Of a stretch of DNA of 64,000 bases, positions 3,283 to 38,302 are shown in pieces. A model generated the notes under the pieces. The model was not told the DNA's origin and searched no databases. It worked only from the letters and a program-made list of their open reading frames with translations. The stretch covers positions 1,120,001-1,184,000 of the forward strand of contig CBDDCX010000008.1 of assembly GCA_965226375.1 (NCBI GenBank), in the 5' to 3' direction. This DNA is from Longimicrobiales bacterium. GTDB lineage: Bacteria > Gemmatimonadota > Gemmatimonadetes > Longimicrobiales > Gaopeijiaceae. The stretch's first letter is position 1. Each line of letters starts with the position of its first letter. The position numbers were made by a program, and so were the translations under genes.

Positions 3283-4182
3283 TTGGATCCAGGCGGTGCC
3301 TTCCGAGTCGAGCAGTACCTAGACCACCTCAACTTCGAGCGAGGGCTGTCTCCACGAACGGTAGACGCGTACCGACGAGATCTCCTCCGGTTCGTGGAGT
3401 TCGTGGGCGAAGAGGGGCGGAGCAGTCCGGAGAATGTCATGCCCTCCGACGTTCGCAGCTACATGTTGCACCTCAGTGGGTTGGGTCTGGCTCCCACCTC
3501 TGTACGCCGGGCGCAGTCGGCTCTTCGCACCTACTTCAGATTCCTGGTCGAGGAAGGGGTCTCGGACCAGGACCCCACAGAAGGGCTCGAGAGCCCGAGG
3601 GTGGGTCGTCCGCTGCCCGATGTTCTCAACTCGCGCGAAATTCTGGGGCTCCTGGAGGCGCCCCGTCTCGACTCTCCTGTCTACTGGCGGGACAAGGCCA
3701 TCCTCGAGGTGCTGTATGCTACAGGCGTGCGTGTTTCGGAGCTCATCGGCCTGAAGATCACCAACGTCGATCTCGATCTCGGACTTTGCACCGTATGGGG
3801 AAAGGGGGCCAAGGAGCGCATCGTGCCGTTGGGAGGGCCGGCTCGGGTGGCCCTGCACCGTTTTCTACAGGACGTGCGGCCAGAGCTGGACCGGGGATCG
3901 AGTGGCGGTCACGTGTTCCTAAACAGGAAGGGTGGGCCACTCTCTCGAACGGCGATCTGGAATCTTGTGCGAGAGGCGGCGCGCGCCGCAGGCCTCAGCA
4001 AAAAGGTCTCCCCGCACACCCTGCGCCACACCTTCGCGACCCATCTTCTGGAGGGGGGTGCCGACCTTGTGGCGGTGCAGGAGCTACTAGGTCACGCCGA
4101 CATCTCGACCACTCAGATCTACACACATGTGGATCGAGAATACCTACGGGGTGTGCACAAGAAATATCATCCCAGGTCCTGA
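3283..4182 (+). CDS. xerD: Site-specific tyrosine recombinase XerD (start approximate, TTG)
   Basis: ERGLSPRTVDAYRRDL N-terminus, LYATGVRVSEL, GKGAKERIVP, SPHTLRHTFATHLLEGGADL, LGHADISTTQIYTHV, ends HPRS. Confidence 0.88.
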   Translation: MDPGGAFRVEQYLDHLNFERGLSPRTVDAYRRDLLRFVEFVGEEGRSSPENVMPSDVRSYMLHLSGLGLAPTSVRRAQSALRTYFRFLVEEGVSDQDPTEGLESPRVGRPLPDVLNSREILGLLEAPRLDSPVYWRDKAILEVLYATGVRVSELIGLKITNVDLDLGLCTVWGKGAKERIVPLGGPARVALHRFLQDVRPELDRGSSGGHVFLNRKGGPLSRTAIWNLVREAARAAGLSKKVSPHTLRHTFATHLLEGGADLVAVQELLGHADISTTQIYTHVDREYLRGVHKKYHPRS

Positions 4183-30181: not shown

Positions 30182-30236
30182 TCGTCGCAACTTGAGCTAC
30201 GAGAGTTGGATGGCCCCGGACGCGCGAGGGCAAGAC

Positions 30237-30782
30237 ATGGGGAGAATCGGGGGACTGACAGCGGCAGCCACAGCTGCCATGCTTCTGCAGGGGTGTACGT
30301 TGCTCGCGAGCGGTCCAGTCGTGCCCAGCCCGGGAGACGGGATGAGCATTCCCGTCACCGATGTGCCGGATGCCGTTCCGAAGCCCGAGGTGAAGACCCG
30401 ATCCGGGAATCCCGCGTCGTACGAGGTCGATGGACGCGAATACCACGTCCTGGAGACCAGCGAAGGGTACCGCGAGGTCGCCATAGCCTCCTGGTATGGT
30501 CAGGCGTTTCAGGGTCGCCGCACGTCATCGGGCGAACCCTACGACATGTACCGGATGACGGCAGCCCACAAGACGTTGCCGCTACCGACCTACGTGCGGG
30601 TCACCAACATGGAGAACGGGCGCAGCGTTGTGCTGCGCGTAAACGACCGGGGCCCGTTCATCGAGGGCAGAATCATCGACGTTTCGTTCGTGGCCGCCCA
30701 AAAGCTGGGCATGGTCGGAAGTGGCACCGTCCAGGTCGAGGTGGTAGCCCTCGACCCACCGGCGCGCGATCCCGGTGTGTGA
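30237..30782 (+). CDS. rlpA: Septal ring lytic transglycosylase RlpA family lipoprotein (DPBB, no SPOR domain)
   Basis: Lipobox LQGC, ASWYG, TAAHKTLPLP, VNDRGPF, RIIDVS. Confidence 0.88.
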   Translation: MGRIGGLTAAATAAMLLQGCTLLASGPVVPSPGDGMSIPVTDVPDAVPKPEVKTRSGNPASYEVDGREYHVLETSEGYREVAIASWYGQAFQGRRTSSGEPYDMYRMTAAHKTLPLPTYVRVTNMENGRSVVLRVNDRGPFIEGRIIDVSFVAAQKLGMVGSGTVQVEVVALDPPARDPGV

Positions 30783-30873: not shown

Positions 30874-30901
30874 ACTTAACATAATATATATTATACGAAG
30901 T
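30874..30901 (-). other. dif site (XerC/XerD); left junction of the island
   Basis: Minus strand ACTTCGTATAA-TATATA-TTATGTTAAGT: 11-6-11 layout, XerD arm 10/11 identical to E. coli TTATGTTAAAT; intergenic; strand bias flips across this locus. Confidence 0.9.
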
Positions 30902-31208
30902 TACAGACAAAGCTATTTTCTAACTCTATATATATCAATACTTTCGGGGATCGCTAGTACTTATCATAATACCGGCGAGGCTGGATTGCTGGCCCCCTTC
31001 CTCCAGTTCAAAATGCTGGATGGTCCCCTGTCGAATCAAGCCTGCCGGACTCGATCCGCCCGACAGCCATCTCCCGTCATGCCCAGAGGCCAATAGTTGG
31101 TACGTCCAATCCCACTGGCGTATAATATCCGCATGGCCAATTATTCGACAAGAAAATGGAGAGCGGAGACCCGGCCATAACCTCCGCTCCCCAGACAGGA
31201 GGCACAAT

Positions 31209-31598
31209 ATGACGGGATTCGCAAAGCTCACCGTGAAAGCTCTTCGCGCCCTGGCGGAAGAGTATGAGATCCAACTCCCCGCTGGACGGATCACCAAGGG
31301 CAAGCTGATCGAGATCTTGGAGGCGGAGAACATTCAGCCCCCTTGGGATGGTCCGGAATGGAAATGCCCGACTCCGGCCAGCTTGATGAAGGCGGGACTC
31401 CTTCTCGGGATCGCCCCCCGGCCGATCTGGCGGGCAGTTCAAGCTCGCTGGCCCGACTATCGGGGAGCCTCGGGATTAGGATCGGTCGGAGTCTACCGCC
31501 GGGATCTCCAGAAAGAGAAGCTGCTTAACCGCACAGCCCGGATCACTCCGGCAGGTCGGGAGATCTTGGCCGGATTGCAGGGGGTGAAGGACGCCTAG
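31209..31598 (+). CDS. Small island protein with Rho-N/HeH-like N-terminal helix pair
   Basis: AGGAGG RBS; KLTVKALRALAEEYEI..TKGKLIEILE; followed by a terminator hairpin. Confidence 0.65.
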   Translation: MTGFAKLTVKALRALAEEYEIQLPAGRITKGKLIEILEAENIQPPWDGPEWKCPTPASLMKAGLLLGIAPRPIWRAVQARWPDYRGASGLGSVGVYRRDLQKEKLLNRTARITPAGREILAGLQGVKDA

Positions 31599-31624
31599 CC
31601 CCGATCCCTCCCCCTGGAGGAGAG

Positions 31625-31654
31625 AGGCTCCCTGGCTTCGGCTAGGGAGCCTTT
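31625..31654 (+). terminator. Intrinsic terminator-like hairpin
   Basis: AGGCTCCCTGGC-TTCG-GCTAGGGAGCCT then TT, 26 bp after a stop codon. Confidence 0.6.
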
Positions 31655-31720
31655 CCTATTCGGAACCATATTTAGATCATTTGACATGGCTGGGTAATTC
31701 CCTTAGAGGAGAATAAAATC

Positions 31721-32050
31721 ATGAGATCCCGAGGTCATGCTGTCCTTACTCCGGAGAGATGGCGGTCGCCGACAGTGGGTGGATTGTGGCACCAGCACAG
31801 GGATGCTCAGTGGATGAGCAGAGACATCACCACCATGTGGAACTATTGATTGATGCGGGCCATGCCCAATGGAACGATCAAAAGGTAGTGGCTAGGATCA
31901 CGAATGCTGGCTACGACTTCATTGACGGATGCCGTTGAGAAGCAAGAAAGAGTCCGTACGAAGTTTGACCTTGAACTCTTCAAGGCCGGTATGCCCTATC
32001 TCATGGCCGTCAAGGCAGCGCTGGGCGTTCTGAATCTGACGGCGGGCTAG
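31721..32050 (+). pseudogene. Frameshifted DUF2513-like gene
   Basis: Joined frames give MR/DPEVMLSLLR/EM..HHVELLIDAGH..RITNAGYDFI/DAVEK..; TTGACA at 31681 and GAGGAG upstream. Confidence 0.55.
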
Positions 32051-32084
32051 CACAGGGGCCTGCCCCGAGATGATCCAGGCGAGT

Positions 32085-32128
32085 AGAGAGGGCTCCCTAG
32101 CTATCGCGGCTGGGGAGCCTTCTTCTCT
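32085..32128. terminator. Hairpin between convergent island genes
   Basis: GGCTCCCTAGC-TATCGCG-GCTGGGGAGCC with AGAGAG / TTCTTCTCT flanks. Confidence 0.5.
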
Positions 32129-32385
32129 AGGGAAGTATTGACATGATGTCTTCCACCTTGATCCAAGGATAATCATCCGAGTCTCCCCTCTTCTGCTTTA
32201 CTAGTGCCTTGAATTTCTTTGAATCTAGCTCCTTCTTCCCGAGCTTTTCATCCTTCAGAAATTCGAGCGCCACCGGAAATATTGTATGTACCGCAGTCCT
32301 CACATGGAATGAGGGTTCCGTCGCCCGTACTAGCTAGGCACTTCGCGGGCTTCTCGCAGACTGGACAGGTATCTCGCATAATCAT
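32127..32385 (-). pseudogene. Frameshifted small zinc-ribbon protein gene
   Basis: AGGGAGGG RBS; MIMRDTCPVCEK..CEDCGTYNISG, continuing in another frame as ALEFLKDEKLG..IMSILP*. Confidence 0.55.
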
Positions 32386-32533
32386 CCCTCCCTATAAGCT
32401 CGATCAAATTGGCCCATCAACGAGCTGCCCGTACCCTGGATCCACCCGAAGGGGCCGAAACCCTCTCTGCGTGCGTACGTGAGACACGGAGCACGCAAAG
32501 AATTAGAGTAGGGCGAAGGCAGAGAAAACGAAC

Positions 32534-32982
32534 ATGTTGGGACTGCGAGAGAGAATGGCAGAGAATGGTAGTGCCCCTGGAACCGGGGAGGCCAAGCGAA
32601 GCGCGGCAGCTCCTGCGGACCCGGAGGTAGTAGATAGGCCGCTACGGCGGCGGTTCAGTCCGTCGTACAAGCCCGGATCGTCGAAGAAGCGGACCGGTGC
32701 ACCGAGCCCGGCGAGGTGGGTCAAGTCCTGCGGCGAGAGGGCCTGTACTCGTCGCACCTGACGACGTGGCGCAAGGCGGCGCATAGCGGGTCGCTGAAGG
32801 CCCTGTCGAAGAAACGCGGCCGCAAGCCGGAGCGAAATCCGCTGGATGAGAAGGTACGCAAGCTGGAGCGGCGAAACGCACGGCTCGGGAATGAGCTCAG
32901 GAAGGCACACCTGATCATCGACGTGCAGGGAAAAGTTGCGGGGCTGCTGGGGATAAGCCTCGACGACGGGACAAACTCTTGA
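32534..32982 (+). pseudogene. IS3 OrfA, frameshifted
   Basis: GCTGCGGATC in copy 1 is GCCCGGATC here (about 32671), splitting the ORF. Confidence 0.85.
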
Positions 32983-33983
32983 AGGCGGCCGATGAGCTGG
33001 CTAAGCACGTCGGTGTAAAACCGGCGTGCGCGGCCCTCGAGGTCTCCCGATCGACGTTGTACCGTCGTCGAGGCCCATCAACCGATCAACAGCAGCCCCG
33101 CCCGACGCCCGCCCGGGCATTGAGCGAGACGGAACGAGGCGAGGTCTTCGACACGCTGTGTTCGGAGCGGTTCGTGGACCGCTCACCCGCCGAGGTGGTG
33201 GCCACGCTGCTCGACGAAGAGGTCTACCTGTGCAGCGAACGCACGATGTATCGTGTTCTGGCCTCCGAGGTGCCGGTTCAGGAACGCCGGGCGCAGCGCA
33301 CCCATCCCGAGTACAAGAAGCCCGAGTTGATGGCCACGGCGCCGAACCAGGTGTGGTCCTGGGATATCACGCGGCTGCTCGGGCCGAAGAAGTGGAGCTA
33401 TTACTACCTCTACGTCATCATGGACATCTACAGCCGCTACGTCGTGAGCTGGATGGTGGCGGACCGGGAGAACTCGGCCCTGGCCGGCCGGTTGATCCAG
33501 CAGAGCTGCCTGAAGCATGGCGTCCAGCCCCAGGTCCTGACCCTGCACTCGGATCGGGGAGCTCCAATGACGAGCCAATGCACCGCTCAACTTCTCGCTG
33601 ACCTCGGCGTGACCCGCTCGTTGAGCCGGCCTCAGGTGTCGGATGACAACCCGTTTTCCGAGGCTCAGTTCAAAACCTTGAAGAATCCCTCGTTTCCCGG
33701 ACGGTTCGGGGATCAGGGCCAAGCCAAGACGTTCTGTCGATCGTTCTTCCGCTGGTACAATGCCGAGCACCGCCATGGCGGCATCTCGATGCTAACCCCC
33801 GAGCAGGTCCACTTCGGGAACGCCGATCAGGTCATTGCCGGCAGGAAATCCGTGCTCCGCGAAGCATGGGCCGCTCATCCCGAACGCTTCGTCAGAGGTG
33901 TGCCGAATCCCAAACCGCTCCCGGAGGCCGTCTTCATCAATCCTCCCATCCCTTCCCTCACCACACAGGACATTGCTCTCTAA
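32979..33983 (+). CDS. IS3 transposase OrfB (one-codon deletion KYHP>KNP, substitutions)
   Basis: 334 aa versus 335 aa in copy 1; DDE motifs retained. Confidence 0.88.
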   Translation: MKAADELAKHVGVKPACAALEVSRSTLYRRRGPSTDQQQPRPTPARALSETERGEVFDTLCSERFVDRSPAEVVATLLDEEVYLCSERTMYRVLASEVPVQERRAQRTHPEYKKPELMATAPNQVWSWDITRLLGPKKWSYYYLYVIMDIYSRYVVSWMVADRENSALAGRLIQQSCLKHGVQPQVLTLHSDRGAPMTSQCTAQLLADLGVTRSLSRPQVSDDNPFSEAQFKTLKNPSFPGRFGDQGQAKTFCRSFFRWYNAEHRHGGISMLTPEQVHFGNADQVIAGRKSVLREAWAAHPERFVRGVPNPKPLPEAVFINPPIPSLTTQDIAL

Positions 33984-34127
33984 TTAATCCCGTAGAGTGT
34001 CCCATTGTCGTTGACAGGTTCCGAAATGGCTCCAGGGGCGCTTCCAGGAGCTCTCAAGGGAAAGGAGAAGCCCCTCCTCCGGAATCACTCCGAGGGAGGG
34101 TTCTCTCTTGCGAATGATATTGCCAAA

Positions 34128-35195
34128 GGGGGTATTCCCTTAAGTCCACCGACCCCAAGATATAGTGGTTACCGGGGCTCTGCGGGCCGTTTCCCACGTC
34201 CGGTGCCGAGGTAAAGGGCCGAAGCTGGCGTGGGAGCACACTGAACAGCCTGCTCAAGCAAGCGGTAGAACAACAGGCCGCGAGCCCGGGATGTGCGTCG
34301 GTTGAAGCGAAAGGTGAACTCGTCCAGATAGTAGGGGAGGTGTTCGCGGGCGATCCCTCCTTGGAGGGTTCCGAGGACCCAGCGCTTGAGGAGAGACGCC
34401 ACCCGATGTACGGCCGACATGAGCACGTGAGCGGGATCGCCGGAGGTCGAGAGGTTCGTGACCGTGTGGCGAAAGCCCAGTTTGGCGAGTCCCTGATAGC
34501 TTGGCCATCCGTCGGTATGCACCGTGCTTGCCGGTGCGATGCTATCCTTGACGAAGCCTCGCAGAACCGGAGCGGAGAGGTCGGGCACCCAACGCAGCCG
34601 TATTCTCCCGATCTTGCGTCCGTCGACCTCGGCGGCGATCGCGACGATGGCCTTCTTGATCGTCTCGCGGCCCCGCACTCCAGCCTCCACGCCCCCGACA
34701 TAGCTCTCGTCCACTTGCACAACGCCGCTCAGCTGGTCGCGATCCGGTCGGACCATGGCCCGGCGGAGCTTGTGGAGCCAGACCCACGCTGTCTTGTAGC
34801 TTCCCAGTCCGAGCACGCGCTGGAGCCCGAGAGCATTGGCTCCGTATTTCTGGCTCGTGAGCTCCCAGGCAGCGAGAAACCACAGACGCAGGGGCGAGCG
34901 CGTGCGGTGGAACACGGTTCCCGCCAGCACCGAGGTCTGCCTTCGACAGTGTGGGCAGACGAGACGCCCCCGCGATGCTCGCCAGACCTCTCCCAACCCG
35001 CCACAGCCCACGCACACAAACCCTTCCGGCCAGCGCAGACCCTCCACGTACTCCAGGCATGCCGCATCGTCGGGGAAGAACTCGTCCAACTCCAGCCGCG
35101 TACGGGGATAGTCCACGCCGCCACGGAGCTGAGAAGCCGGAACCGCCATGACCACAACATGTAGTGGGCGGTGGACTTAAGGCTCATACCCCATT
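34128..35195 (-). mobile_element. IS1595-family element, copy 1, 8-bp target duplication TTGCCAAA
   Basis: IRs GGGGTAT..CTTAAGTCCACCG at both ends; TTGCCAAA at 34120-34127 and 35196-35203; ends uncertain by 2 bp. Confidence 0.88.
34169..35155 (-). CDS. IS1595-family transposase (Zn ribbon + DDE)
   Basis: LRWPEGFVCVGC..CPHC, VQVDESYVGG, HTDGWPSY, YLDEFTFRFNRR; identical protein at 60118-61104. Confidence 0.93.
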   Translation of the reverse strand: MVMAVPASQLRGGVDYPRTRLELDEFFPDDAACLEYVEGLRWPEGFVCVGCGGLGEVWRASRGRLVCPHCRRQTSVLAGTVFHRTRSPLRLWFLAAWELTSQKYGANALGLQRVLGLGSYKTAWVWLHKLRRAMVRPDRDQLSGVVQVDESYVGGVEAGVRGRETIKKAIVAIAAEVDGRKIGRIRLRWVPDLSAPVLRGFVKDSIAPASTVHTDGWPSYQGLAKLGFRHTVTNLSTSGDPAHVLMSAVHRVASLLKRWVLGTLQGGIAREHLPYYLDEFTFRFNRRTSRARGLLFYRLLEQAVQCAPTPASALYLGTGRGKRPAEPR

Positions 35196-35245
35196 TTGCC
35201 AAATTACATGAGGGGGTTGGCAAAACGCACGGGAGACTCTTTGAA

Positions 35246-35964
35246 ATGAATGCGAAGAAAGGACAAAGACAACATTCGCCGCAGGACTTGTGCCTCAATT
35301 CCTTCTTCGTAATTGGATCCGACTCTGACAATAGAGTCGGTGTTTTCCGGAAAAATATTCCCGGAATGCCTTACAGCCGTCTCAGTCCAAGAGCTACAGG
35401 GTATGAGGAGGGAGTCTATTCGTTGAAGGGGGTCCGAGATGTAGATTCGCGGATATAAATCTCGTGGAAGAGAGAGTCCTTAGCCTCATCGATAGCAATA
35501 GCGCGCAGGTCATCAATAAGCTACTTAAGTCTGGACTTTCTGAGATGGCTAATAAAGATGTTGAATGGTTGTATATTCTTGTGGCGTCTCTGGAGTTACG
35601 TCATCCTGACCACATTGAGAGCGTCAAGGAAATGGCCTACTCCGTGATAGCCGATGATATAGACGACGGGTTTGAGTTAACTAGACAGGTTCTCGAAACG
35701 ATGGAGAAACACCCGGAAATAGCCAGTAACCTACCTCGAAAGAACCTAGGTCTCCACATCTCGAGTCGAGCCAATATTTTACGAAAGGAGTTGCGATCGT
35801 TGGCATTAATGGACTTCACAGATGAAAGGGACCATCTGCTTCTGTCTGATCTTCCGCTCATTCGGACAAAGGGAGTAGAGGATCCAAATGTGGTTGTTGC
35901 GCTACCTATCAGCCCCTGGAAGCTAGTCTTGGGATTCAAGACGCCAATGTTCGAAACAGTCTAG
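35246..35964 (+). pseudogene. Frameshifted, truncated DUF4238-like gene
   Basis: QH.PQ start, SPRATGYEEGVY, frameshift near 35455, then EERVLSLID..SLELRHP..LLLSDLP..ALPISP. Confidence 0.6.
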
Positions 35965-36019
35965 GAGCCCAAGAAGAAACCCGAGGAGGTGTTCCCTTGG
36001 GAAAGGGTATCTCTCAAGG

Positions 36020-36056
36020 TTAGTTAAGGGGTCGACTTTTGCCCCCCTTTAACTAA
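36020..36056. terminator. Hairpin between convergent genes
   Basis: TTAGTTAAGGGG...CCCCTTTAACTAA imperfect inverted repeat. Confidence 0.45.
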
Positions 36057-36057
36057 T

Positions 36058-36384
36058 TTATGAAAGGATGCTCGGTTCCGGATCCTCGGGATCGGGGAAC
36101 CAATACACATGCTTCCTGCCCCGCACTTCCCATTCGAGAAGTCCATGATCCCGGAGAGCGCGTTTCGCCGCCTGAACGGTCCTCATGGAGAGCGAAGCGC
36201 GCTGAGCGATGGTCTGCATGGTGGGGAAGCATCGTCCGGTCGAGGAATTCTTGAATGAGCGGATGCTGACGTAGGTAGCTAATTCAGAACCCTTCAACCC
36301 GATAGCCTCCCAGGGAACAGGAACGAAACGCCGGGGGAGCCCTTTGCAGAGCGGACAGAGGATAGTCTTCTTTTTCTTGGTCAT
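36058..36384 (-). CDS. Helix-turn-helix protein (HTH_36-like, as in phage/plasmid replication protein N-termini)
   Basis: CFPTMQTIAQRASLSMRTVQAAKRALRDHGLLEW; N-terminal CPLC. Confidence 0.7.
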   Translation of the reverse strand: MTKKKKTILCPLCKGLPRRFVPVPWEAIGLKGSELATYVSIRSFKNSSTGRCFPTMQTIAQRASLSMRTVQAAKRALRDHGLLEWEVRGRKHVYWFPDPEDPEPSILS

Positions 36385-36746
36385 TGATGGTTCAATCATA
36401 CTACAGTGATGTAGTAGTATAGAATTCACAGAATCCTCAAAATTCAGGAATTCTTAATTCTTGATATGGTTATGAGGAGTCGGTGCAAGGGAGGTCCCCT
36501 CCGGAACAGTGAAGTTCTCGTGAGTGACTCTCCCTCGCAAAGCAGGATGTCAATGAGTCTGCCAGCGCGTTATAGGGTCGGAACTGTAGGCCGCTCCGAT
36601 TCGGTCCAAGCCTCCCCGCCCGCCCGATGGAATCTATTAGTGAGTCGCCCGCAGGGATCACCCGACGACTCATACCCTGACTTCAAGGGAGATTCCTTCT
36701 AGACGAAAGATAAGGGGTCCATTATCTCGGAGCAACGCACTGTCAT

Positions 36747-37202
36747 TTAACATACGCCCCCTGCCCGCAGGTCACTCTCGGACCACCAGACTCCTTTGGG
36801 TCCATTCCCTAACGCCCGGCCTGATTTCGTATGAATCAACTTCCAATGACCAGGGGGACCTCCCTCCGATTCCAATATGAAGTCCTTCTCAGCCGCCCTC
36901 TCATGCAAGCGGTCCTCCGGAGTCATCTCCGCCGTCCCGATCCTCTCCCGCGCTTCCGATCCTTCAGTCTGAAGTGGTGGGACTCCGAGCCGCTTTGCTA
37001 CATCCATCGTGTGCCAGGAATATTCTAGTCGACTCCAGGTGGTGCCGGGGAGATCGTATCCCTTCTTGTCGATGAGTCGCCAGCACTCGAAATCGATAGC
37101 TAGGGGATCTCTCCGGAGGGATTTCAACAGGACAAGTCCCTGACGAGATGCAGCTCTTCGAAGCCTGTTCTCATAGACCTTCTGCTGGATCGAAATCGCC
37201 AA
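36747..37202 (-). CDS. Hypothetical island protein with an internal two-fold repeat
   Basis: Purine-rich RBS before TTG; ENRLRRAASRQGLVL..WRLID resembles EDRLHERAAEKDFIL..WKLIH. Confidence 0.6.
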   Translation of the reverse strand: MAISIQQKVYENRLRRAASRQGLVLLKSLRRDPLAIDFECWRLIDKKGYDLPGTTWSRLEYSWHTMDVAKRLGVPPLQTEGSEARERIGTAEMTPEDRLHERAAEKDFILESEGGPPGHWKLIHTKSGRALGNGPKGVWWSESDLRAGGVC

Positions 37203-37267
37203 GTCCCTCTCCCCCTGAGGAGAGAGTATGGAGAAGGGTCCTGGGCGATTTTTCGGATAGGTCGAGG

Positions 37268-37300
37268 TATGCCGGAGAGTATGCCGGAAGATATGCCGGA
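37268..37300 (+). repeat. Three direct repeats TATGCCGGA, 12-bp period
   Basis: 37268-37276, 37280-37288, 37292-37300, in non-coding DNA. Confidence 0.85.
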
Positions 37301-37489
37301 AAGGATGGGAGCCAGCCCGAGAGGAAAAATCCTGCTGAGGCTGTCGAGATATCCTAAATATATGTAAGGAAAGGACTTAGAGTCCGTCGAGTGAAAGGAC
37401 TTTCGGTGCTGCCAACTTTCATGTAAAACGCGATGAGAATGGGCCTATCCTCTTGAAAGATAAGGGGTTAGCCCCTCGGTCCAGTCAGA

Positions 37490-37517
37490 ACGCCAGACAA
37501 TATATATTATACGAACT
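37490..37517 (-). other. Degenerate dif-like site; right junction of the island
   Basis: Minus strand AGTTCGTATAA-TATATA-TTGTCTGGCGT: XerC arm 10/11 and spacer 6/6 identical to the left site, XerD arm 6/11. Confidence 0.8.
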
Positions 37518-37597: not shown

Positions 37598-38302
37598 TCA
37601 GCCCAATCCTTCGGCCACTCCCCGCATCTCGGCCAACCGTAACTCGTAGACTCCGCGTCCCGGGTCGTCGACCTCGAACGTCGCTAGAATCCGCTCGTAC
37701 AACTCGGCCGCACCCTCGATGTTCTGTTGGCGATGTCGTGCCCGTGCACCGCTCTCCAGGGCGTCGTGGATCTGGAAATCCAGATCCGCCCTATCCGCGA
37801 TGCGCAGATACAGGCCCTCGGCGTCCGACCAGCGACCCTGGTCCTCGTAGGCTCGAGCCAGGAGCGCACTGCCTTGCAGTCCCAAGGCGTCACCGAGCGA
37901 CAGGCCGCCACGCTCCAGCACGCTGATGGCCACTGCAGCGTCACCCGCCTCCAGATGCAACCGTCCCAGGAGGACCACCGCCTCCTGCGCCTCATTGGTC
38001 CCCTCGAAGCGGTCGAGGAACGTACTCAACTGTGCCTTGGCGTCCTCGAAAGCCGAAATCGATATCGACTGGTAGATGGATTCCAACTGGTTCATGGCCT
38101 GTATCGCCACCGAACGCTGGAAGTTGAGATAGTACAATCCACCGAAGATCAGCAGGGCCAGTACGACGCTGCCGAGCACCAGGAGCTGACGATTTACGCT
38201 CGCCCATCGCGACAGGTCCATGACACCGGCGACAAAGGCGTCGTCCTGTTGCTCGGGAGTGTGCGGCTGACGCCGCGACGCGGGGTGGCGGCGCTTCGAC
38301 AT
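37598..38302 (-). CDS. Membrane-anchored TPR protein (YfgM-like)
   Basis: Single N-terminal TM helix followed by TPR-like helices. Confidence 0.75.
   Translation of the reverse strand: MSKRRHPASRRQPHTPEQQDDAFVAGVMDLSRWASVNRQLLVLGSVVLALLIFGGLYYLNFQRSVAIQAMNQLESIYQSISISAFEDAKAQLSTFLDRFEGTNEAQEAVVLLGRLHLEAGDAAVAISVLERGGLSLGDALGLQGSALLARAYEDQGRWSDAEGLYLRIADRADLDFQIHDALESGARARHRQQNIEGAAELYERILATFEVDDPGRGVYELRLAEMRGVAEGLG

What the first reader, a model, noticed from the sequence alone, without database searches (positions are those of the whole stretch)
30874..37517. Integrase-less element integrated at dif: candidate new IMEX with a degenerate XerD arm
Seen: a canonical dif (ACTTAACATAA-TATATA-TTATACGAAGT) and, 6616 bp away in direct orientation, ACGCCAGACAA-TATATA-TTATACGAACT. 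Recombining them restores a full dif (ACTTAACATAA-TATATA-TTATACGAACT) and releases a circle whose attP has a good XerC arm, an identical spacer and 5 of 11 mismatches in the XerD arm. The interior is AT-richer, has no recombinase, and is about 3970 bp once the two ISs and their duplications are removed. Known: IMEXs (CTXphi, VGJphi, TLCphi, gonococcal island) hijack host XerCD at dif, and TLC and GGI have degenerate XerD arms. Inference: a small satellite- or plasmid-like IMEX in a lineage where I know of none described. No filamentous phage (Zot/pI), HUH Rep or T4SS genes are visible, so it fits none of the known types on gene content.
Basis: partly seen in the sequence, partly recalled or inferred. 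Interest (0 to 1): 0.85.

Follow-up and report, generated by a model that had tools for sequence, protein, structure and literature searches.

The report
Capsid-forming satellite remnant integrated at dif
This is the broken remnant of a small phage satellite that sits in the chromosome's dimer-resolution site (dif), and intact elements of the same design carry their own virus-head genes but no integrase, so they most likely borrow the host's XerC/XerD recombinases, a combination I did not find described.

Summary
Observation confirmed. The left 28-mer is the real dif (GC-skew peak, KOPS polarity flip, family-conserved position); both congeners carry exactly the predicted empty site, and a genome of another genus has an 85-91% identical element at the same site with a different degenerate XerD arm. 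But it is not a minimal plasmid-like IMEX: it is a decayed copy of an ~11-kb head-forming satellite. A close relative (G193) keeps a ~7-kb HK97 module (terminase, HNH, capsid, protease, portal) exactly where the window has a deletion scar, and has its own integrase where the window has orf151 plus the half-dif. Three other genomes hold ~10-kb head-forming elements bracketed by dif and a degenerate half-dif, with no integrase found; their capsids lie in different clades. So cf-PICI-like satellites in this family come as integrase-type and dif-type. Xer use is inferred, not shown; no circle junction was seen, no activator identified, and an intact dif-type member of the window's own lineage is supported only by contig-length matching. 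The scan noted TLC-type IMEXs earlier in other phyla; none combined with a satellite head module.

The parts
30874..30901 (+). attL = functional chromosomal dif (host XerD-side arm, spacer, element-derived XerC-side arm)
   Evidence: Matches family dif consensus, matrix scores 22.0/13.2/22.0; C8 GC-skew maximum at window 36,590; GGGNAGGG polarity 141:49 left, 69:199 right; last bases differ from congener empty sites as predicted
30902..31208 (.). conserved non-coding left end
   Evidence: left end with orf129 is 90% identical in G184
31209..31598 (+). orf129: Rho_N/SAP-like helix-extension-helix plus winged-helix-like C-terminus; probable DNA-binding regulator; shared by dif-type and integrase-type relatives
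   Evidence: weak Pfam Rho_N E 0.009; 49 protein clusters; distant family of 23; present in G193 and G164; model pLDDT 57, no fold match
31655..32427 (.). variable cargo slot with frameshifted small ORFs, bounded by terminator-like hairpins
   Evidence: absent in G184; skipped by a contig in run X8 (table 5c); 32082-32368 is 78% identical in G193; no Pfam or PHROG match
32461..34023 (+). IS3-family element, passenger
   Evidence: NF033516 above cut-off; 31 near-full copies in the genome; IS-free allele in G184 and in run X9
34128..35195 (-). IS1595-family element, passenger
   Evidence: NF033547 above cut-off; 40 near-full copies; 8-bp duplication
35237..35964 (+). DUF4238 gene, frameshifted and 3'-truncated; possible anti-phage cargo
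   Evidence: PF14022 E 1e-7; three-frame translation shows breaks; intact 298-aa copy in G193; a DUF4238 protein protected E. coli against T7 (PMC9122126, one passage)
35954..35963 (.). deletion scar: about 7 kb (portal, connector-like ORF, two protease-like ORFs, capsid, HNH, terminase, Zn-finger ORF, most of a 194-aa ORF) missing relative to G193
   Evidence: similarity jumps from L097:10608 to L097:17636; three read contigs stop matching at 35947-35949 while the records go on (table 8)
36058..36384 (-). HTH_36 / DnaD-N-like protein, like the N-terminal domain of phage replication initiators; an inverted repeat follows at about 36020-36060
   Evidence: PF13730 E 5e-11; PHROG replication initiators E 5e-11; same length in G184 and G193
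36385..36746 (.). conserved non-coding stretch (possible origin or control region; function not tested)
   Evidence: within an 81% match to G193 and an 85% match to G184
36747..37202 (-). orf151, unknown function; occupies the position of the integrase of G193; candidate integration helper
   Evidence: similarity to G193 ends at window 36750 = L097:18444, at the integrase stop codon; 9 close clusters at 76-95%; predicted alpha-beta-beta-beta-alpha N-domain, best match T7 gp1.2, Z 6.5, rmsd 2.5, 69 aligned, a lead only
37203..37489 (.). conserved non-coding right end
   Evidence: 91% identical in G184
37490..37517 (+). attR = degenerate element XerD-side arm (ACGCCAGACAA), spacer, host XerC-side arm
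   Evidence: XerD-arm matrix score -8.8 against 5.5-22 for 39 natural sites; spanned by read contigs in two studies with 1 and 8 differences
30192..30782 (+). host rlpA, left flank
   Evidence: TIGR00413; adjacent to the single dif in G001, G002, G011
37598..38302 (-). host TPR gene, right flank
   Evidence: Pfam TPR; follows dif directly in G002 and G011 and follows attR in G184, G305, G325, G300
3283..4182 (+). host xerD, 27 kb from dif (xerC and ftsK lie elsewhere on C8)
   Evidence: TIGR02225 above cut-off; XerC best match TIGR02224, 309 bits, under the 335 cut-off; FtsK gamma domain above cut-off

Best explanation
The window holds the decayed remnant of an ~11-kb head-forming phage satellite that integrates at dif through the host XerC/XerD. 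SHOWN: the left site is dif; the empty site exists; the junctions are reciprocal; a sister element sits at dif in another genus; a close relative away from dif has the full HK97 head and packaging module and its own tyrosine integrase in place of orf151 plus the half-dif; other ~10-kb head-forming elements are bracketed by dif and a degenerate half-dif with no integrase found. INFERRED: the circular satellite carries an attP with a good XerC arm, the host's spacer and a degenerate XerD arm; XerCD exchange within the 17 shared bases regenerates a working dif on the left and leaves a poor site on the right, which FtsK-activated XerD does not use, so the element is stable (as reported for GGI and TLC). 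I favour a two-exchange, TLC-like pathway with an element-coded helper (about 0.55) over a XerC-only exchange resolved by replication (about 0.35). The intact form is induced by a helper phage, replicates using its HTH_36 protein with host or helper helicase, builds small heads and takes the helper's tails. The window's copy has lost the head module, gained two ISs and is probably immobile unless complemented.
For: unique, true dif; 2 of 2 congeners carry the predicted empty site; G184 element 85-91% identical, host genes 68-71%; G193 head module, integrase swap, deletion scar; G305, 10,395 bp, and G325, 9,911 bp: head genes, dif plus half-dif, TPR flank, 0 of 127 ORFs of 75 aa or more match any integrase or resolvase; G300, same design, spacer matches that host's variant; 18 of 40 contig lengths bearing orf151 and 24 of 47 bearing orf129 recur among contigs bearing the capsid, including contigs of 13.9, 18.0 and 20.7 kb; host xerC, xerD, ftsK; dif-type capsids rejected as one clade, p-AU 6e-6.
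Against: No attP circle joint and no empty-site joint among the 15 joints listed; 26 were hidden. Neither dif-located copy of the window's own lineage (G000, G184) has the head module, so an intact dif-type member of this lineage rests on contig-length matching, not on DNA I read. G305 and G325 have no orf151 or orf129 homologue, and the orf151 N-domain also occurs in two head-forming elements not at dif (G304, G196), which weakens orf151 as a dedicated activator. No primase, AlpA or TerS was recognised, and G305 has a weak tape-measure-like ORF, so some could be tail-deleted prophages. G300 is split over two contigs and was tested for integrases only by tblastn.
Confidence: 0.78

Rival explanations
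1. Same element and same site, but integration is by a single XerC strand exchange with the junction resolved by replication (VGJ/CTX-like); the XerD arm is simply unused and drifts, and no activator is needed.
For: The five degenerate arms share little (5, 6, 5, 8, 6 mismatches); G184's arm lacks both the first-position T and fifth-position G that PMC9226527 (passages) finds important; no shared candidate activator across dif-type elements.
Against: Spacers are fully identical to the host's in 5 of 5, whereas CTX/VGJ overlap regions prohibit the second exchange (10.64898/2026.06.12.731946, introduction); 4 of 5 arms keep the innermost T.
Confidence: 0.3
2. The 4-kb form is a complete minimal IMEX or a streamlined parasite of the full satellite that is still mobilised in trans.
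For: Both ends, orf129, HTH_36 and orf151 are intact; G184 also lacks the head module.
Against: The loss truncates DUF4238 and fuses it to the tail of another ORF; G184's loss has different, IS-bounded ends; read contigs of variants continue differently at the scar.
Confidence: 0.1
3. dif is only a target: insertion was made by an integrase supplied in trans (integrase-type relative or helper) or by microhomology, not by XerCD.
For: Integrase-type relatives exist in the same family; the genome has 20 tyrosine recombinase matches.
Against: Five elements in three capsid clades all keep exactly spacer plus XerC arm and regenerate a canonical dif; integrase-type relatives are not at dif.
Confidence: 0.07
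4. The head-forming elements are tail-deleted prophage relics, not helper-dependent satellites.
For: No primase or AlpA found; neck-protein matches in G305 and G325 and a weak tape-measure match in G305.
Against: Both att sites are intact around 10-11 kb units; the same compact head module recurs at 31 places in 24 of 314 genomes and in 218 capsid clusters, many on 9-12 kb contigs.
Confidence: 0.12

Closest known systems
TLC-phi of Vibrio cholerae (TLC-type IMEX; PMC9226527 passages; 10.64898/2026.06.12.731946 first fifth and passages)
   Same: No integrase; attP with good XerC arm, host-identical spacer and degenerate XerD arm; new dif formed on integration; a satellite.
   Different: TLC depends on filamentous helpers (recalled) and encodes XafT; here the lineage carries an HK97 dsDNA head module and no XafT-like protein was recognised.
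cf-PICI, prototype EcCIEDL933 (10.1101/2022.09.08.507074 passages; SatelliteFinder PMC10085698 passages)
   Same: 10-15 kb; capsid, protease, portal, HNH, large terminase; few or no tail genes.
   Different: cf-PICIs carry int, alpA and primase-replicase; PMC10085698 calls integrases core genes of all satellites. Dif-type elements here have no integrase found, and no AlpA or primase was recognised; the window's copy has lost the head module.
Vibrio dif-type versus int-type double jelly-roll prophages (PMC12715192 passages)
   Same: One virus-like backbone in two integration versions, with 17-bp half-dif attP in some.
   Different: Those are autonomous tailless phages with a shared P15/XafT-P16 lysogeny module; these are HK97-head satellites in another host group.
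Gonococcal genomic island and Legionella LME-1 (PMC9765430 passages)
   Same: Wild-type dif on one side and a modified dif on the other, giving stable integration.
   Different: Much larger elements with other gene content; fewer arm changes (3-4 against 5-8 here); LME-1 uses a single recombinase.

Membership tests
IMEX | Integrated at the chromosomal dif | tested here: met
IMEX | dif-like attP; reciprocal hybrid junctions; empty site in relatives | tested here: met
IMEX | No integrase of its own | tested here: met
   window; G305 and G325. G184 carries a P4-type integrase module between IS3 copies, 68% GC, with relatives scattered in G000, read as a passenger
IMEX | Host has XerC, XerD, FtsK | tested here: met
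   (XerC best match is under the curated cut-off)
IMEX | Integration depends on XerC/XerD | not testable with these tools
   needs genetics or in vitro recombination
IMEX | Free circular form with attP | tested here: inconclusive
   no such joint among those listed, 26 hidden, contigs only
TLC-type IMEX | Identical overlap region and degenerate XerD arm | tested here: met
   5 of 5 elements
TLC-type IMEX | Xer activation factor (XafT/XafV-like HTH) beside attP | tested here: inconclusive
   orf129 and orf151 flank attP; no profile or fold match to a known Xaf; no direct comparison with XafT was made
CTX/VGJ-type IMEX | Filamentous phage genes and mismatched overlap region | tested here: not met
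   no such genes; spacer identical
cf-PICI | Capsid, protease, portal, HNH, large terminase | tested here: met
   met in G193, G305, G325; NOT met in the window's copy
cf-PICI | Integrase | tested here: not met
   absent from the window, G305, G325; present in G193, G164
cf-PICI | AlpA-like regulator and primase-replicase | tested here: not met
   no match among 127 ORFs of G305/G325 or 12 chosen ORFs of G193; only an HTH_36 initiator-like domain
cf-PICI | Small terminase and head-tail connectors | tested here: inconclusive
   no TerS recognised; neck-protein matches in G305 and G325; conserved 126-aa ORF without profile match
cf-PICI | No tail or lysis genes | tested here: inconclusive
   none in G325 or the G193 ORFs scanned; weak tape-measure match E 1e-7 in G305
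cf-PICI | Helper-induced, small heads with helper tails | not testable with these tools
   needs induction and electron microscopy

The most novel reading that the evidence does not exclude
A class of HK97-head-forming, tail-stealing satellites that are also IMEXs: the integration module has been exchanged repeatedly between an own tyrosine integrase and a half-dif site across at least three capsid lineages, and in the window's lineage orf151, which stands where the integrase stood, is a Xer activation factor unrelated to XafT and XafV. The class-level part alone I put near 0.7; the activator part near 0.2-0.25.
Probability: 0.2. Interest if true: 0.87.

Novelty: new variant of a known kind. 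Interest (0 to 1): 0.7.

Why it matters
Satellite surveys treat the integrase as a core gene (PMC10085698) and read integrase-less chromosomal satellites as probably inactivated (PMC10690885, passages). Intact head-forming satellites bracketed by dif and a half-dif show another reading: they can be integrated by the host Xer system and would be scored as incomplete. It joins two known strategies (cf-PICI packaging, TLC-type attP), gives five natural degenerate XerD arms to test how FtsK-independent Xer recombination is activated, and offers a near-isogenic integrase-type versus dif-type pair. The window's own copy is defective, so the value lies in the family.

Tried and rejected
orf151 scans of JGI metagenome, GTDB and IMG/VR contigs found no relative; the left-end pattern gave 10 metagenome matches, all unrelated to the element by blastn, and 0 viral matches; the capsid scan of IMG/VR found none. 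Distant orf129 homologues are not dif-linked: G380 (HNH fusion, no dif-like site in 40 kb) and one IMG/VR head-gene region, so orf129 as a dedicated Xer activator was dropped. Complex prediction of the XerD catalytic domain with orf151 gave no answer (score 0.01). An internal duplication in orf151 suggested by the model has no sequence support (790 of 5000 shuffles score as high). PADLOC, NCBIfam and ESM Atlas did not name the cargo. A DUF2513 likeness of 31721-32050 is recalled, not supported by Pfam. G001's 8.8 kb after dif has no second dif and is ordinary gene gain. G272's two hits are two canonical-like sites on separate contigs; the second hits of G156 and G243 were not in the regions fetched. 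No att core was found for integrase-type G193 or G164. Read depth at the element ends (100-760 in three of four runs, 36-54 in the fourth, against 0-18 just right of attR) is summed over organisms and was not used as copy number. The host phylum is not given by any tool; my guess of Gemmatimonadota (used as a search term) is unverified.
Full report
OBSERVATION. The shared core occurs twice in the window and never in 100 shuffles, and there is no third copy in the 4.23-Mb genome. The left site is the real dif: the cumulative GC skew of the 2.27-Mb contig peaks inside the element, GGGNAGGG octamers flip from 141:49 to 69:199 across it (that this octamer is KOPS is recalled), and it fits a matrix built from family dif sites, against which the right site's XerD arm scores -8.8 while 39 natural arms score 5.5 or more. 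The host has xerD (27 kb away in the window), xerC and ftsK. Removing the IS3 and IS1595 with their duplications leaves 3974 bp; these ISs have 31 and 40 near-full copies genome-wide, while the rest is unique in the genome.

EMPTY AND OCCUPIED SITES. In G002 and G011 it lies directly between rlpA and the TPR gene. Of 314 family genomes searched with the left end, only G184, of another genus, holds the element: same flanks, same left end, a right junction with a different degenerate arm (ACGCAAATTAT), about 15 kb with ISs, an inversion and a passenger integrase module. Element pieces are 85-91% identical, host genes 68-71%, which indicates horizontal spread. Contigs from four runs of four studies cover the core; in two of them contigs reach attL with 0 differences and span attR with 1 and 8 differences, though one may be the source sample. 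IS3-free and cargo-free variants occur. No circle or empty-site joint was among the 15 listed (26 hidden).

WHAT THE ELEMENT IS. A weak left-end hit led to G193 (third genus). There an ~11-kb element, 800 kb from dif, shares the orf129 domain, hairpins, DUF4238 (76%) and the HTH_36 region (81%) with the window. Between DUF4238 and HTH_36 it has portal, two protease-like ORFs, HK97 capsid, HNH and large terminase. In the window the match jumps across these 7 kb at 35954-35963, truncating DUF4238 and leaving the tail of the next ORF; the module is nowhere in G000. At the other end the match stops at the stop codon of G193's tyrosine integrase, exactly where the window's orf151 ends. G164 repeats the integrase-type layout and G120 has a split integrase. 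So the window is a remnant of a head-forming satellite whose integration module is orf151 plus a half-dif instead of an integrase.

INTACT DIF-TYPE ELEMENTS. The G193 capsid matched 31 places in 24 of 314 family genomes. I scanned 23 places over 14-20 kb for dif-like sites: 2 of 23 are bracketed by dif and a half-dif, G305 (10,395 bp, arm GCTGGCGAGAA) and G325 (9,911 bp, arm CGAGGCTACAA); 7 places were never scanned. Both end at the same TPR gene; none of their 127 ORFs of 75 aa or more matches an integrase or resolvase in Pfam, while head genes and a neck protein do. A half-dif pattern over all 314 genomes hit 213, 8 of them twice: the four above, G300 (dif, terminase split over two contig ends, capsid, portal, half-dif GTTGGGAATAA, TPR; its spacer TACATA equals that host's), G272 (two canonical-like sites on separate contigs) and G156 and G243 (unresolved). 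All 5 resolved elements have 0 spacer mismatches and 5-8 XerD-arm mismatches. On the capsid tree G305 and G300, G325, and the G193 lineage fall in three deep clades; one clade of the three dif-type capsids is rejected (p-AU 6e-6, 14 of the 29 rows, quick tree, group defined by att type). For the window's own lineage the link is indirect: 18 of 40 contig lengths bearing orf151 and 24 of 47 bearing orf129 recur among 154 lengths bearing the capsid (from; lists are partial, and on megabase contigs a match does not show adjacency, but 5 of the 18 are under 50 kb). Those capsids group with G193/G164/G120. orf151 marks the dif-type in only two genomes read (G000, G184).

MECHANISM. Shown: site, junction polarity, module swap, absence of integrase. 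Inferred from TLC and GGI: XerCD recombines attP with dif, rebuilds a working dif at attL, and leaves at attR a site that FtsK-driven XerD does not use, which stabilises the element; the three GGGNAGGG octamers inside point toward attL (small number, one in the IS3). Identical spacers favour two exchanges as in TLC; a XerC-only route is the main rival. orf151 is the positional candidate for an activator, but G305 and G325 lack it and its N-domain occurs in two non-dif elements. Packaging by own heads with helper tails is inferred from cf-PICI biology. DUF4238 may be anti-phage cargo. The window's copy is probably immobile; some of its indels, also seen in its IS copies, could be long-read errors.

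KNOWN AND NEW. It meets the sequence-level tests for an IMEX with a TLC-type attP. The family works like a cf-PICI but fails its integrase, AlpA and primase criteria, so I do not file it as one. Integrase-type versus dif-type versions of one backbone are known for Vibrio double jelly-roll prophages. Six paper searches (listings only, library limited to open papers) showed no head-forming satellite integrating at dif. Papers were seen as passages, plus the first fifth of the 2026 preprint; no supplements. Earlier scan notes report TLC-type IMEXs in Planctomycetes and Bacillota (unchecked), so an IMEX outside Proteobacteria is not unique; none of the 8 notes listed for capsid-forming satellites involved dif, and no note resembled this sequence.

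VERDICT. Real; new variant of a known kind; interest 0.70. The window's copy is a ruin, but it exposes integrase-less, head-forming satellites at dif in at least three capsid lineages of one bacterial family.

Noticed in passing
window 3283-4182; G304, G196, G325, G305, G164: xerD lies 23-28 kb from dif in the window and in five other family genomes, a conserved linkage.
   Followed up: partly
window 32461-34023 and 34128-35195: Very high IS load (31 and 40 near-full copies); the IS3 is 98-99% identical in G001, G002, G005 and G184, that is across genera.
   Followed up: partly
window 32461-35195: The IS copies inside the element carry small indels absent from sister copies: decay or long-read error.
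   Followed up: no
L066:18900-20000 and L067:1-2452 (G184): A 68% GC module with a P4-type integrase and an unknown 367+ aa gene sits inside G184's element; several relatives at 72-79% are scattered in G000.
   Followed up: partly
P0049, P0069, P0074: Three orf129 variants share one contig length (428,528), as do capsid variants on other contigs: possible tandem arrays.
   Followed up: no
L096:3-557, P0106, L098:1-1998: The orf129 C-terminal domain is an unnamed small family, fused to HNH, to SprT, and to a phage head-region protein.
   Followed up: partly
L129:14056-15672 (G305): 539-aa tape-measure-like ORF inside a 10-kb dif-type element.
   Followed up: no
L097:12465-13467 (G193): Two tandem, overlapping-frame prohead-protease-like ORFs, repeated in several relatives.
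   Followed up: no
L068, L069 and other capsid loci: Many compact HK97 head modules away from dif with no integrase seen by tblastn; their integration route was not examined.
   Followed up: no
L056:3200-12040 (G001): 8.8 kb of transporter, membrane genes and two IS110-like transposases right after dif, with no second dif (the IS110 label is recalled).
   Followed up: yes
L017:1429-2490 (G000 C7): 353-aa recombinase with integron-integrase-like scores, under cut-off.
   Followed up: no
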